A stretch of DNA of 64,000 bases from Kondoa subrosea. Lineage: Eukaryota. A program made the position numbers and the translations under genes. The stretch is taken from the NCBI GenBank assembly GCA_039545335.1, contig BCIN01000008.1:383528-447527 (forward strand). The letters are read 5' to 3'. Positions 8,341-15,476 of the stretch are shown one piece after another; within the stretch, counting starts at the first letter, position 1; every line of letters begins with the position of its first letter. The notes below the pieces were generated by a model that did no database searches, had not been told where the DNA came from, and saw only the letters and a list, made by a program, of their open reading frames with translations.

Positions 8341-9846
8341 CATACATGGCTGAAAGTAGTACAGAAAGAGAAATCTAGTAGATACGAAAATGACCTCGAC
8401 TGCGAATCTCTTGTCAACTGTTGAGCTGTCTATGGATGGTCTGGATGCCAGTTATTGTAATTATGCCGTCGAGCGGGTTTCGGCATCAACTAGAACGAGT
8501 CAGCATTATCTCCTGAGTGACTGAATGACATACCCTGCAAGAACGAGCAAATTGCTGAGCGACAGCCCTGCCTTGCTCACTATCGTCTTTGTACAAGAAA
8601 GAAAACTCTGAGCCTGGCGGAACCTGGCTGGCATGATCCCAGCTCAGCCGATGTCTCTCGAAGATGGACTTGAGGTGGTCCAGTGCAGCGTCGGTGCGAC
8701 GTGCGTCGATTGTGCGGACCGTCATTTCGGACCTTGTTCTAGACCATTCTGTGTCTTCCTGGTGTAGAACATCCCTTGCTGCCTCCCGATTTAGGTTGTC
8801 TGGTGCAAGTGGTCCCTTATTCTTGGAGTGCGACTTTCGTTGGCTCAACCAGTAACCAACGACCTGAATATATGATCAGACCGAAAAATTCAATTTTAAT
8901 CTTTCTACTGACCCGGATATCATCTTTATCTTTCTCGACCGCAGAATCATCGTGGACCCGACCGTTATCCTGAGATAAGTACTATGAGCAGACTGATTGT
9001 AGCTATGCAGCTCGAAGAGACGTACATTATGAGCTTCATGGAGAGCTTTGGCTCTGCTTCCCAGTCTGTTGTCCACGTATCTTGACGGCAAAAAGCGATT
9101 CAACCGATTTTTACGATTGATACTCCTCCTGCAGCGAATTCTGTCAAGATTGACTGAATGCGATATGATTGACGTACATTTCATCGGCAGTGAGTACCAT
9201 GTTGTTGTCAAGATAATCAGCCGGTAAAGAAGAGCTGAAGAGGACCAAGAGGAAGAAGAGAGGTTGGAATATGTAAATGACTGGACTAGAAGAATGCTTC
9301 TGAATACAAAGGGTCATCATCCAAGTCATGTATGACAGGGAAGTGATAACACCTCAGGAGCAGGAAGAAAGAACAGGATGCACAAGAGAGATAAAATCAA
9401 ACCGAGGAGCAAAGAATCCCTTCTTCACAAATTTGATGCGTCTAGAGCTTTTGCAAGGCTGACTTTATCGAACAAAACATAACGACAGCACTGGAATTTA
9501 CAGACTGATGTAGACAGCCTTACCAGGCCCGCACAAACTGCTCGTATCACGCGAAATGGCAGAAGAAGAACGTCTTGGGCAGTGCTCGGTCTTGATCAGG
9601 AGGTTCGCTTGCACGAATAGCTCGCATTGAGCTCTTGCTCTTACATCTCAACGAGCCACATCTCAGCAACAGGTCAACCCGCCAATAAATCTCGCTTGTC
9701 TCGAACTTCCATTCTATAAGAATAATTGACAGTGTGAGCTTCTAGCTGACCAGTGACGCTGTCGAGATCTCATTGTCGGGCTCCAATTCACTCTCTCCTC
9801 CTTACTTTCCACTTTCGGTCTCGTTCCTTGCATTTTTGGTTTCAGT

Positions 9847-11060
9847 ATGGCTGCAAAATGTTACGTAGGCAATCTCAGGTATGTAGTACAGATTGGTAGG
9901 GCGCGTTGTGGCCCATCTCTGCGCTGTTTAGCTGGAACACCACCAAGGATGATCTCGGACAAGTAAATGCTCAATTTCACGCTCAGACTTGTTTAGCAAT
10001 GCTTATTCTTTTGCTCGTCTACTGGCGTTCTCGCAATTCGGAACCGTGATTGATTGCAGTATGGTTGATTTTGTGCATTGCGGTTCGAGATTTGATTCGT
10101 TTTGTTCAAAGTTGTCATGCAAGAGGTATCGATTTTGCTGTGGGATTCGATCTGGTTTGATACTTGCTTGTGTGTTTTGTAGCAAGAAACCGGTCGTTCT
10201 CGTGGATTTGGTTTCGTCACTGTTCGGCTTTGTTTTACGTGTTTTGGTGTTTGCTCTGATTTCAAGTCTCCGGATTCCCAGTTCAGTGATCAAAGCGAAG
10301 CCGATCGAGCTATTCAAGGCATGAACGATCAGCAGCTTGTTAGTTCTCGCGTGCTGTGTTTTTTGAATATTTTTTATGACGCGCTTGTTTGACCTTTAGG
10401 GTAAATTTCCTCTTGCTTCTCGCATGGCTTGTTTAACAACTAGCTCCTCAGATGGACGTAGACTTCGCGTCAACGTCGCCAACCAGCGTGGAGGCGGTGG
10501 AGGAGGATCTTGTTCGTCTCTCTACCTCTTTGAGCATTTTTGATCTCATCCTCTCTTGCATTCTTTAGTCGGAGGAGGATGTACGTTGCTCTTCACACTC
10601 GCGCGCTATCTCTCTAATGTATAGATTACCCAGATGGCCAGAGCTGTACGCCTGAAAACGAGCTAATTCTTGTTAGCTAACATTTGTGATCAGATGGTTC
10701 TGGGTACGGTCAGCAACAAGCCTATGGAGGTGCTGGACAAGGCTTTGAGCAATACGGAGGCAACGCTGGAGGTAAGTCTATTACTTGGCTCTATTCCGTC
10801 AGACATCTGATTTAGGTGTTCTCTGGTAGGCCAATACGGCCAGCCTCAATACGGTGCTCCTCAAGGATACCCCGGCTACAACCAGCAAGCTCAAGGATAT
10901 CCTCAGCAAGGATACCAGCAGAACTATGGTCAACAGCCGGCAGCGAGCTACAATCCTCAACAAGGTGGTTACTCCGGCCAGAACTAGTAAGATTCTTATC
11001 ATTTGTCACCGTCAATCGACCTCTGACATCCTACTCAGTGGTGGTGCTGCTCCCTACTGA
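9847..11060 (+). CDS. Glycine-rich RNA-binding protein (one RRM plus a G/Y/Q low-complexity tail), 12 coding introns
   Basis: Spliced product MAAKCYVGNLSWNTTKDDLGQAFSQFGTVIDCIVMQEQETGRSRGFGFVTFSDQSEADRAIQGMNDQQLDGRRLRVNVANQRGGGGG... has RNP2 (YVGNL) and RNP1 (RGFGFVTF). It requires a 1-nt exon and a TG acceptor. Confidence 0.9.
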
Positions 11061-11370
11061 TCTCGGCATGTCTGTCGCGCCTGATCTTGTATACTCGCTT
11101 TCTTCTTCGTTCTCAAGGTTGATTTCGGAACTGTTCTTGGGTGTACAATAAGGGCCAGAAGAATCTTGTACGCATGCTTATGGATTTGATCTTAGCCTTG
11201 TCACATCAGAATCACATTCTTACGCGCTTCGTCATCGCAATGTTTTTCAGCTTGCACCGCAACCACTGAAACGCATTGCTTTCGTCCAGAGATTACTTGA
11301 ACACCTGTGCACTGCCTATATTCAATCATCAGCTCTAGTATTACCCTGGTCTGATTGTGCGCGAGCCACG

Positions 11371-14300
11371 ATGGAATCAGATCTGAAGGAAGAAGAGAAT
11401 CTAGGTGGCCTCTATGTCGCTCTGTATGCTTTGAGAGCTTCCATTCCTGCTCTCTCTATCGTTGTCTTTGCCTCCTACTACGCCTTGACTAAGCTGTTCA
11501 AGTCTTTCAAGAAACTTCAACGAAGTGCATACACTGCTATTGGTACTGAAGCACAAAGCACTCTTCCATCTAACCCTTATGCATCAAGACCACCTCAAGC
11601 ACCTAAAGCCAAATCACCGATCATCCCTGTTGTTGTACAATTCAAGGAGAAGAGAAGCAATCTGATACTAGCGCTCTTTGGTCTAATTGCTGTATCGTAT
11701 CTTATTGCGGATGGAGCAGTCATTGTTACAAGAGCGATCCTTTCCAATGCATGGGAACCGGAACTCAAGCTGTATCGATTACAAACCTTCTACCTATCAA
11801 CAGGCTTCGTCTTTGGGTTAACAGCCATTATGTTGGCTCATGATAGGGAAGAAGGGAAACAGAAAGGTGCATGGAAATCTTCTTTCCCAGCAACGATGGT
11901 CGTCCTGGTCTTTGCAGCCGAGACAGCTTTATTAGGCGTGCTTGGTACAGCTGTTCGAGCAAGACATAGAAGTCCTCATCATCATAAAGTGTCTCCATAC
12001 GATATCGCACATTTTTCTATCCTTGGCGTACGGATCCTACTTCTTCTTCAATTAGCTTTATCCTTTTCTCCCTTATTTCAGCAAAGTCGATTTCTCAAGG
12101 CCAAAGATGCAGCAGCATATGGTACTTTCGAGAACGGTACTACTACGCCCGAAGAACAAGCCGCCAAGAAGCCAGCTAGTGGAGATCCGACTGTCCCTAC
12201 ACCTGCTCCGCCAGTATCGTTTGCAACATTGGTATCTAGAGTCAAAGTTCTAGCGCCCTATCTTTGGCCTGCTAAATCTCGTATACTACAAGCTGTGGCC
12301 GGTCAGTCTTCCTAATTATCGTGATAAGTATGCGTCTGATATGTTCAAATCAGTGCTCTGTTTCATTATTTTGGGATTGGGTCGAGTTATCAATGTTGGC
12401 GTACCCCTTTTCCTTGGATACACAGTTGGAGCATTGGCGGATGGAAGATCACCATGGACGTACTTGTTTGGCTATATAGCTTTGAGATTCATGCAAGGCA
12501 GTGGTGGTATATTGACTGTTCTTCGTCCGTCATCTTTACAACGGATAACCCGAGGATCAAGCTAAGATTTAATGTTAGAACAAAATCTGTGGATCCCCAT
12601 CGCGCAGTATTCTGATAGAGAGTCAGTAACATCTTCATTTCGTCGTCTGCTTGTTGCTGAGAACGATATTGATTGGCAGAATCACTCTCATGACTTTCAA
12701 TCATCTGCTCAATCTCTCAATGCAATATCATGTATGAAGAAAATCGCGCTGTGCTTCCTGTTAGCTAAGATGATTTTCAATATCATAGAACCGCAGAAAG
12801 ACGGGTGAAGTCTTGCGGGCTTTGGATCGAGGCAGTGAGTCTTGTTGCAAGGCTGTAGACCATAATTGACTCTTAGTATAAGGTGCAATCAATACCGTAC
12901 GTCTCTGATCATACATAAGGGAAGGCGCCTGACTCGAATTCTGCGCAGTTCTTCCAAATGTATGGTAGCATAAATATACCTGCAATTCAACGCAAAGCTG
13001 ATTTCTCCTTCTAGGCTGCTCTTCCAGATCTTCCCAATCTTTGCAGATATTTCAGCAGCGGTCATCATTTTCTTCTTCCAGTTTGGTTTCTTGCTATCGA
13101 TCGTCGTCTTTGCTGTATTATTCTTCTATGTGGTCGCGAGCGTGGTCTTGACTAAACGAAGAGTTGCCCTTAGAAGAGCTATGAATGATTCGGATAAGTT
13201 CTGCAGAGGTATACATACGTAAGACTTATACTGACTGCCAGCGCGGGAAGATTCTGACAATGTGATTAGTGATGCTTTGATCTCGGTCGGTGAGTAATGC
13301 CAATTTCCTTCGACCCTTGCCATCGAAGCTGAAGCTACATGTAGAAACTGTCAAGTGTCAGTTCGATATTGCCCCGCTCGCTCGAAGAGTGACTAATTCT
13401 GTTTGTAGATTTCACCGCGGAAGATTGGGAAAGTCAGCGCTATCGCGAAGCTATGCAAGATTAGTATGTTGGACCTTGGCTATCAGTCTGTTCCTATCTG
13501 ACTAGCCTTCGCAGCCAAAAGAAGGAACTGCGTGTCATGATGTCGCTCAGCGTGCTCAATCTCACGCAGAACTTGATCATCTCAGGTAAGCTTTCTTGTA
13601 TTAGTTGAATTAGGACTGGACGCATGCGATCTAAAGTCGGAATGCTTGTCGGAACTCTGATTATCAGCTGGCAAGTCGTCAATGGCAAATCTAGCGTTTC
13701 GCAATTTGTCACCTTCGTTGCATATCTGCAGCAGGTCAGTACAATCTCTACTTGAAACTTGTGAAAGCCAAAGCTCATGATTTCGTCGCAGCTATACGTA
13801 TGTCGGCTTGTCTCGAGTATCTGACACTGCTAATTCGGATCTTAAATACGTAGGGGCCGTTAGTGCAACGATCTACTATACCGCTGGGCAATCAGCTAAT
13901 CGCTTTCCCTTGCGAATAGGCTGAATTCATTGGGCACACTTTATCGAGTTAGTAAGTAATATAGCGCACAAGTTCTGCACCAGCTGATTCACTGATGCCC
14001 GCCCAGTCAACCAGAACTTGATTGATGTTAGTCTACAATATAGCATTCCAGCATTTTGCTGATCCTAAAGTGATTCTGGCATGGCAGACCGAACAACTCA
14101 TGAATCTCCTTAATGAAGATGCAGAAGTCAAAGACCGCGAAAATGCGTCGGAACTGTTGACATCGAAAGGAGAAGTCGAGTTCCGCAATGTTTCCTTCTC
14201 TTACAACGGCGGCAAGTCTTTCGCTTTGAAGGATGTAAGCTTCAAGATTCCAGCTGGCGCATCAGCTGCGTTTGTTGGACCTTCAGGATCAGGTAGACTC

Positions 14301-15403
14301 ATTCACTTCGTGTAGAAAGTCAGAGCTGACGCAGTTTCCAGGCAAATCAACTATCATGCGATTAATTTTCAGATTTTACGATGTTACCGAAGGACAGATA
14401 CTCATCGATGGCGTCGATGTGCGAGATTTGACACAGAAGAGTCTGCGCCGACAAATAGGTGTCATACCGCAGGATTCAAGTGAGCCATTTATTGTCGAAT
14501 TTGTTGATCGAGCTGAAGAGCTTTGACAGTACTTTTGTGCGTTCCTTGTCCCACGTATGCAGTTCCTACTTACGCCTATATAGCAACGAATCCATCGGCT
14601 ATAACCTAGCTTATTCCAAACCTGGCAGCTCAAAAGAAGAAATCACAGAAGCTGCTAAACTTGCTCAGATGCACGATCGGATCTTGACTTTCCCTGGACA
14701 GTACGATACCATGGTAGGTGAACGAGGAGTACGATTGAGCGGAGGCGAAAAACAAAGAGTTTCTATCGCGAGAGCTATTTTGAAGAATCCTTCGATATTG
14801 CTGTTGTATGTCCAGAGATCTATTAGCGATTCTGTGTTATGCTCATGAACGGAATAGAGACGAAGCAACCTCAGCTTTGGGTAAACGGGAAGAGTGTCGC
14901 TAGAGTTAATTATACTGATACTCGATGATAGATACGACAACTGAAAGACTGATACAAGAGGCTCTCAACGGCTTACAGAAAGGAGTAAGCTCCATGATAC
15001 GTTTGCTTTCTTCAACTAACGATATTACAGCGTACATCTTTGGCGATAGCTCATCGATTATCAACAAGTAAGCAATCTGTTCGAAAATTAATTTCCTACT
15101 CATGTATGCTCTGCAGTCGTGTCCTCGGATATCGTACGCAATCTACCTCACTAAGTACCAAGACGCTGAAGCCTGTGCAACAGATCTTCGTACTAGAGGA
15201 AGGCAGTATCAAGGAAGAAGGATCGTTCAAGACTTTGAGTCAAAAGGAAGAAGGTCTGTTCAAGCAACTCTGGCAGAAGCAGATACAGTGAGTGTCTCCA
15301 CCTCTTCCGGGCAAGGACTGAACGACTTGCCAGGAGCGAGAACGAATCTGTACAAGAAGCAGAAGCATTGGCGAAAGATGGGCCGGATAAGAAGGATGCA
15401 TAG
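11371..15403 (+). CDS. HMT1: ABCB half-transporter, HMT1/ABCB6-like (heavy-metal tolerance)
   Basis: N-terminal TM extension, [22 protein letters not shown], Walker A GPSGSGKST, signature LSGGEKQRV, Walker B LLLDEATSALD, IAHRLST. Stop at 15401-15403. Confidence 0.88.
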
Positions 15404-15476
15404 TACTTACGTAACTGTATTCGCAATATATCTCTCTGGACCACTAATCCTGCCGCGGAGCTGAGATCCTTCTTCG

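What the first reader, a model, noticed from the sequence alone, without database searches (positions are those of the whole stretch)
9963..10024. Non-canonical GT-TG intron in the same RRM gene
Seen: the exon ends GGA CAA|GTAAAT and the frame resumes at GCG TTC TCG CAA TTC GGA (AFSQFG), but the preceding bases are CTACTG rather than YAG. The only AGs inside (9985-86 and 9995-96) give 24- and 34-nt introns and both break the frame. Use of TG gives a normal 62-nt intron and a well-formed RRM helix. Inference: a functional TG 3' splice site that may throttle expression, or else an A-to-T error or mutation.
Basis: partly seen in the sequence, partly recalled or inferred. Interest (0 to 1): 0.75.

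Follow-up and report, generated by a model that had tools for sequence, protein, structure and literature searches.

The report
Fungal intron ending TG, not AG
An old intron in one of two copies of a fungal RNA-binding-protein gene ends in TG instead of the near-universal AG; the letter is real, but related genes keep AG there, so it is more likely a recent splice-site mutation in a spare copy than a regulatory switch.

Summary
Intron 2 (9963-10024, 62 nt) of a 13-exon glycine-rich RRM (GRP-type) gene reads GT...CTG, no GT/GC-AG cut keeps the frame, and the TG cut restores a gap-free RRM. Contigs built from two DNA runs (143x and 54x; one sample, possibly this assembly's source) carry the same T, so a base-call error is unlikely. 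The intron is ancient: a metagenome scan that left the acceptor free found it at the same position in 36 GRP matches (25 distinct introns), and all 36 end in AG. The TG is therefore derived. These homologues are distant; no close relative was reached. The genome holds a second, fully canonical GRP (10 of 10 GT-AG introns). The window copy was long under purifying selection and has no other lesion, but it is the more divergent copy. Branch point and U-tract are intact, and Prp18, Slu7 and U2 are present. Best reading: a recent -2 A>T change in a spare paralogue, giving mostly unproductive RNA and perhaps leaky TG splicing (0.55). Rivals: an efficiently spliced neutral GT-TG intron (0.27); a selected throttle (0.12). 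Splicing itself is untested. GT-TG introns are a known rare class.

The parts
9963..10024 (+). Intron 2, 62 nt, phase 0, GT...TG
   Evidence: same position as AG-ending introns in 36 homologous matches
9963..9968 (+). 5' splice site GTAAAT (the same hexamer starts intron 7 of this gene and intron 7 of the C7 paralogue)
10000..10006 (+). Best branch-point candidate TGCTTAT, A at 10005 (-20); median strength (47th percentile of 62 auto-picked introns)
   Evidence: inferred, not mapped
10000..10021 (+). U-rich stretch: 12 U and 17 pyrimidines in 22 nt, overlapping the branch point
10022..10024 (+). 3' end CTG; 10023 is the T at the normally invariant -2 position
9985..9996 (+). Two internal AGs (9985-86, 9995-96), upstream of the branch point; 24- and 34-nt introns, both out of frame
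9932..9962 (+). Exon 2 (31 nt), RRM loop 1 and start of helix 1
10025..10058 (+). Exon 3 (34 nt), end of helix 1 and strand 2; skipping it shifts the frame
9847..11060 (+). Host gene: single RRM plus G/Y/Q-rich tail, 185 aa, 13 coding exons (9847-9878, 9932-9962, 10025-10058, 10112-10125, 10183-10221, 10282-10338, 10400, 10452-10511, 10569-10580, 10625-10645, 10694-10771, 10830-10986, 11039-11060)
   Evidence: hand-made model; tail exons rest on frame and splice signals only; PF00076 hit for exons 5-6
10400..10400 (+). One-nucleotide exon (G), also present in the C7 paralogue

Best explanation
An ancient U2-type intron whose acceptor changed from CAG to CTG by one A>T substitution in this strain or its recent lineage, in the spare and more divergent of two GRP paralogues. 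Donor, branch point and U-tract are still in place, and no AG lies between the branch point and the donor of intron 3. Most transcripts should keep intron 2 or drop exon 3 with both flanking introns; both routes hit a premature stop (a 49-aa product for retention) and are probable NMD substrates. Any full-length 185-aa protein must come from leaky ligation at CTG. The canonical C7 paralogue covers the function, so the change is tolerated, not selected. Shown: sequence, frames, ancestral AG, paralogue. Inferred: recency, splicing outcome, NMD, redundancy.
For: 36 of 36 homologous matches (25 distinct introns, 19 clusters) end in AG although the pattern left the acceptor free. ACAG is the commonest last 4-mer in this genome's auto-picked introns (18 of 62), and ACTG is one change from it. 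A canonical paralogue exists at G000:C7, 167 aa, 10 of 10 introns GT-AG. The window copy has 11 RRM residues seen in none of 28 homologues, including E-Q for a D-R pair that is 28/28 invariant, against 6 for the C7 copy. Human AG>TG mutants cited by Szafranski et al. activated neighbouring AGs and did not splice at TG (PMC2374985, passage). Prp18, Slu7 and U2 are present; the conserved core of Prp18 reads through and U2 keeps its GUAGUA branch-pairing motif, so no genome-wide loss of 3' splice-site fidelity is evident.
Against: The gene has no other lesion: an open 185-codon frame, 23 other canonical splice ends and a 1-nt exon, and pN 0.19 against pS 0.75 versus the paralogue. If it is a null, it arose within about 2-3% neutral divergence (assumed indel rates), a narrow window. 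The excess of odd residues is weak: 9 versus 4 private changes (two-sided binomial p about 0.27, hand arithmetic), and one of 28 homologues has 12. The 3' end is U-rich (12 U; maximum 11 in 62 reference and 25 homologous introns), which favours non-AG use in yeast (PMC10711555). The AG-ending homologues are distant and may not be orthologues of this paralogue, and the scan warns that very near genomes may be left out. GT-TG makes up 22 introns (0.024%) of a curated Ganoderma annotation (PMC11590231).
Confidence: 0.55

Rival explanations
1. A working, neutral GT-TG intron. In a 62-nt intron defined across its length, the spliceosome branches at 10005 and, finding no AG, docks CUG efficiently enough to make normal protein. 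The TG is fixed in the species but has no regulatory role.
For: Gene otherwise intact and long constrained. Median-strength branch point at the typical -20 and the most U-rich 3' end in the comparison sets. No competing AG for 34 nt. Region folds less than shuffles (z +1.18), so the site is probably accessible. CUG use is documented in yeast lacking Prp18 (PMC10711555 section 15). GT-TG occurs in a curated fungal annotation.
Against: U-richness is shared by canonical introns of the same gene (11, 12 and 11 U in introns 3, 4 and 8) and of the paralogue (up to 15), so it is not a TG-specific compensation. Prp18 is present. Human TG sites were found only beside an AG, never alone (PMC2374985).
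Confidence: 0.27
2. A selected throttle: the weak TG acceptor makes this transcript the regulated member of a GRP pair. The protein, or its C7 paralogue, binds the U-rich intron and shifts it between productive TG splicing and retention or skipping coupled to NMD, as AtGRP7/AtGRP8 do with a cryptic 5' site.
For: Family precedent for auto- and cross-regulation by unproductive splicing (PMC2602770, abstract). Two paralogues exist. All alternative outcomes carry premature stops.
Against: 0 of 36 homologous matches, and not the C7 paralogue, have a non-AG end here. No structure above chance. Premature stops are expected of any retained 62-nt intron.
Confidence: 0.12
3. Sequencing or assembly error (true base A at 10023).
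For: One substitution restores the commonest acceptor. The two runs laid are one sample and may be the assembly's source, and contigs drop rare variants.
Against: Two separately built contig sets, mean depth 143 and 54, agree with the window at every base of 9700-11150.
Confidence: 0.03
4. Another architecture (nested or twin intron, hidden micro-exon, AT-AC ends, shifted register) removes this sequence without a TG acceptor.
For: The gene does use a 1-nt exon elsewhere, and the paralogue's intron here is shifted by 1 nt.
Against: Any final cut must end at an AG, and none lies after 9996 within the intron. The equal-scoring registers read AG-CT and TA-GG, both worse than GT-TG.
Confidence: 0.03

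Closest known systems
TG 3' splice sites in human U2-type introns, e.g. GNAS intron 3 (Szafranski et al. 2007, PMC2374985; parts 1-2 of 6 and passages read)
   Same: GT donor, U2-type signals, CTG end.
   Different: Human cases are validated in RNA, conserved, and always alternatives to an AG within 28 nt, mostly downstream. Here TG is the only productive end. The nearest AGs lie 28 nt upstream (before the branch point) and about 34 nt downstream (overlapping the next donor), both out of frame. No RNA proof and no conservation seen.
GT-TG introns in the curated Ganoderma lingzhi annotation (PMC11590231; passages and Table 1 read)
   Same: Basidiomycete, same dinucleotide class (22 cases, 0.024%).
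   Different: That annotation was corrected against transcript data; the genes are not named in the passages or in the one supplement held.
Classical -2 A>T acceptor mutations (human cases cited in PMC2374985, passage)
   Same: Single change at the invariant -2 A with all other signals intact.
   Different: Here no in-frame rescue AG exists, a paralogue is present, and the effect on RNA is unmeasured.
BG 3' splice sites in S. cerevisiae lacking Prp18 (Roy et al. 2023, PMC10711555; passages and section 15 read)
   Same: CUG end with an upstream U-tract.
   Different: Requires loss of Prp18, which is present here; those sites compete with a normal AG.
AtGRP7/AtGRP8 auto- and cross-regulation by splicing and NMD (Schoning et al. 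2008, PMC2602770; abstract read)
   Same: Pair of single-RRM glycine-rich paralogues; unproductive outcomes carry premature stops.
   Different: The plant switch is a cryptic 5' site in a conserved intron; nothing here shows regulation or conservation.

Membership tests
U2-type spliceosomal intron | GT donor with U2-type context | tested here: met
   GTAAAT, also used by two canonical introns of the GRP genes
U2-type spliceosomal intron | Branch point at the usual distance and length in the genome's range | tested here: met
   TGCTTAT with A at -20; 62 nt against a median of 55.5 in 62 auto-picked introns (noisy set)
U2-type spliceosomal intron | YAG 3' end | tested here: not met
   CTG
U2-type spliceosomal intron | Position homologous to canonical introns | tested here: met
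   36 matches with AG-ending introns at the same codon boundary
Functional GT-TG intron | Junction at TG seen in RNA | not testable with these tools
   Only DNA contigs could be laid
Functional GT-TG intron | TG is genomic, not an error or masked allele | tested here: met
   one sample only, contigs drop rare variants
TG-AG tandem acceptor (Szafranski class) | Partner AG within 28 nt used as an alternative acceptor | tested here: not met
   The AG 28 nt upstream lies before the branch point and gives a 34-nt intron, below the 40-87 nt range seen (search floor 40); none lies between branch point and TG or within 28 nt downstream
TG-AG tandem acceptor (Szafranski class) | Conservation of the TG in orthologues | tested here: inconclusive
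   0 of 36 distant homologous matches have TG; close relatives not reached
Splice-site loss-of-function allele | Ancestral AG, derived change at the invariant position | tested here: met
Splice-site loss-of-function allele | Loss of correctly spliced mRNA; AG in conspecific strains | not testable with these tools
   needs RNA and other strains
GRP-type splicing/NMD feedback switch | Splicing ratio depends on GRP level; unproductive isoform is an NMD target | not testable with these tools
   only the premature stops are shown
U12-type or AT-AC intron | RTATCCTT donor and CCTTAAC branch (motifs recalled, not from a call) | tested here: not met
   neither motif is in 9940-10030 (sequence)

The most novel reading that the evidence does not exclude
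A sole TG acceptor with no AG partner, fixed in this lineage and obligatory for the protein, acts as a tunable bottleneck in a fungal GRP paralogue pair. It would break the human rule that TG sites need a nearby AG and give a fungal counterpart of AtGRP7/8 control built on a non-AG 3' site.
Probability: 0.12. Interest if true: 0.65.

Novelty: new member of a known kind. Interest (0 to 1): 0.27.

Why it matters
If RNA shows efficient use, this is a natural, single-letter test of AG-independent 3' splice-site choice in a short fungal intron with Prp18 present and no partner AG, a situation the human survey did not find. It would also be a gene that GT-AG annotation must mis-predict. If it is a fresh mutation, it is an ordinary damaged allele of a duplicated gene. 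One RT-PCR separates the two.

Tried and rejected
Sequencing runs: no RNA holder listed; 2 DNA runs of one sample, marked as possible source. Look-alike stretches in earlier scan notes: none; a search with a database GRP gave 1 unrelated bacterial note. Protein searches with single window stretches found nothing useful: exons 5-6 read through intron 5 gave 1 candidate, none scored and 2 unrelated multi-RRM proteins; the tail exon gave 439 candidates, none scored. These are weak blanks. A profile search returned 7033 hits, of which 120 were listed, mostly multi-RRM proteins; none was flagged as the window's own. Pattern scan of prokaryote genomes with a first, slightly different pattern: 6 of 6 hits chance. 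Viral contigs: 1 of 1 chance. In the metagenome scan 22 of 58 matches were dropped as chance because the three codons upstream of the pattern did not read N/G-L-S and no RNP1 followed; 4 of these end in AG (one repeated sequence) and 1 in TG (L073, stop codon in the would-be exon). None of the 58 had the window's own intron-1 position with RNP1 downstream. Canonical alternative cuts, nested introns and micro-exons: rejected. RNA structure: none above chance. Loss of Prp18, Slu7 or a changed U2: not seen; U2AF35, Prp8, U5 and U6 were not examined. Literature: 'GT-TG + intron + fungi' 7 papers, 'TG dinucleotide + splice site + acceptor + fung' 6, 'GU-UG + intron' 3, two six-term searches 0, a glycine-rich/basidiomycete search 198 with 25 listed; by their listings none describes a TG acceptor in a fungal GRP gene. 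PMC3990503 and PMC13149111 had no hits for the terms asked. Per-species GT...TG counts exist in the supplement of PMC7072748, but only its header row was seen.

Full report
Observation. The window is from an intron-rich fungal genome (G000, 18.9 Mb, 27 contigs; the stretch 9840-10500 has one DNA match in it). Bases 9963-10024 form a 62-nt intron that starts GTAAAT and ends CTACTG. Its two internal AGs give 24- and 34-nt introns that break the frame, and all 3 GT/GC-to-AG pairings found between exons 2 and 3 are out of frame. Retention, exon-3 skipping and the next downstream AG all lead to premature stops. [quoted passage not shown] Scoring 798 in-frame cuts with an HMM from 9 database GRPs puts the top score on three adjacent registers, of which GT-TG is the only one with a GT donor. 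The product aligns without gaps to 28 homologous RRMs.

Is the T real? Contigs built from two DNA runs cover 9700-11150 in one piece with no differences, at mean depths 143 and 54. They come from one sample that may be the source of this assembly, and contigs hide rare variants. This makes an error unlikely but says nothing about other strains.

Homologues. I scanned metagenome contigs with a pattern for exon 2, a GT, a 46-76 base gap and exon 3, leaving the acceptor free. It gave 58 matches in 54 loci. 36 pass an independent test (the three codons upstream read N/G-L-S), and all 36 end in AG; they hold 25 distinct introns in 19 clusters (TAG 10, CAG 8, AAG 1), some listed twice through overlapping loci. 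The 22 others look like chance: 4 end in AG and 1 in TG, with a stop in the would-be exon. A similar pattern gave 6 chance hits in prokaryote genomes. So the intron is ancient and its ancestral end is AG.

Paralogue. The same genome holds a second GRP on contig C7 (locus L104): 167 aa, 10 of 10 introns GT-AG. It shares the intron-3 and intron-4 positions and the one-nucleotide exon with the window gene. Its intron at the place in question is shifted by one base and ends CTACAG. The two RRMs are 61 of 79 identical with pN 0.19 and pS 0.75, so both were long under purifying selection. The window copy is the odder: 11 residues unseen in 28 homologues against 6, including E-Q for an invariant D-R pair. 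The excess is not significant (9 versus 4 private changes, p about 0.27 by hand), and leave-one-out values among the homologues range from 0 to 12.

Signals in the intron. Against 62 introns picked automatically from the window and 49 loci of this genome (578 candidates filtered by donor motif; a noisy set), the branch candidate TGCTTAT (A at 10005, -20) is of median strength, and the 3' region has 12 U in 22 nt, above all 62 and above 25 homologous introns (6-11). Canonical introns of the same gene reach 11-12 and one of the paralogue 15, so this is a family trait, not a clear compensation. ACAG is the commonest ending (18 of 62), one change from ACTG. The region folds no better than shuffles. 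Prp18, Slu7 and U2 are present, with the Prp18 core reading through and the U2 branch-pairing motif intact.

How it most likely works. A single A>T change hit the -2 position of a normal acceptor. With no AG after the branch point, the transcript either retains the intron (49 codons, then TGA), loses exon 3, or is ligated at CUG at low efficiency. The first two are probable NMD substrates, and the C7 paralogue can cover the function. I put this at 0.55. Against it, the gene has no second lesion, which limits a null allele to roughly the last 2-3% of neutral divergence (assumed indel rates). An efficiently spliced neutral GT-TG intron gets 0.27, a selected throttle 0.12, error 0.03 and another architecture 0.03. 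The first two grade into each other and only RNA can separate them.

What is known. TG acceptors are established in 36 human genes, always next to an AG within 28 nt and never as the sole site; AG>TG mutants there used neighbouring AGs (PMC2374985). A curated Ganoderma annotation lists 22 GT-TG introns, 0.024% (PMC11590231); in Coprinopsis 99.8% of sites are GT-AG, GC-AG or AT-AC (PMC12230235, passage). Yeast uses CUG and other BG ends when Prp18 is lost, helped by U-tracts (PMC10711555). Plant GRPs regulate each other by unproductive splicing at a cryptic 5' site (PMC2602770, abstract). My searches listed no report of a TG acceptor in a fungal GRP gene. Earlier unchecked scan notes list several other broken-looking splice sites in this genome and RNA-supported TG acceptors in other fungi; I did not test them, and they point in opposite directions.

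Verdict. A real, derived TG at an ancient intron end, in a gene with a canonical spare. It works like a weak non-AG acceptor at best. It fails the membership test for TG-AG tandems and cannot yet be filed as a functional GT-TG intron. Interest 0.27; the bold reading (a sole TG acceptor as a throttle in a GRP pair) has probability 0.12 and would deserve 0.65.

Noticed in passing
window 10400 and L104:1894 (G000:C7): Both GRP paralogues keep the same one-nucleotide exon (G) between two GT-AG introns, although their synonymous sites are near saturation; this supports the 1-nt exon noted earlier for this window and shows that it is old.
   Followed up: partly
L104:1185-1239: The paralogue's intron at the TG-intron place lies one base downstream (phase 1) of the position used by the window gene and 36 homologous matches (phase 0): a candidate 1-nt intron slide. 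It is followed by a 7-nt exon.
   Followed up: partly
L104:951-1018: The paralogue appears to start with a split ATG (2-nt coding exon, then a 13-nt exon), and its intron 8 is 303 nt, far longer than its other introns.
   Followed up: no
window 10222-10281: Intron 5 is 60 nt, in frame and stop-free; retention would insert 20 residues right after RNP1.
   Followed up: no
L039-L090 (metagenome GRP loci): Homologues share unusual donors: GTCAGT, GTTCGT or GTCCGC at this intron and mostly GTGCGC or GTACGC at the next, which hints at conserved weak 5' sites in fungal GRP genes.
   Followed up: no
window 10119-10185: The window RRM has E-Q where 28 of 28 homologues have D-R just before the RNP1 loop; either relaxed constraint or altered RNA specificity.
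   Followed up: partly
window 11364-15410: Neighbouring intron-rich ABC half-transporter gene, HMT1/ATM1-like by my recall of the motifs in the translation; no family search was run.
   Followed up: no
L106 (G000:C1 about 3949000-3949500): The Prp18 gene seems to contain a GC-AG intron inside its conserved region.
   Followed up: no
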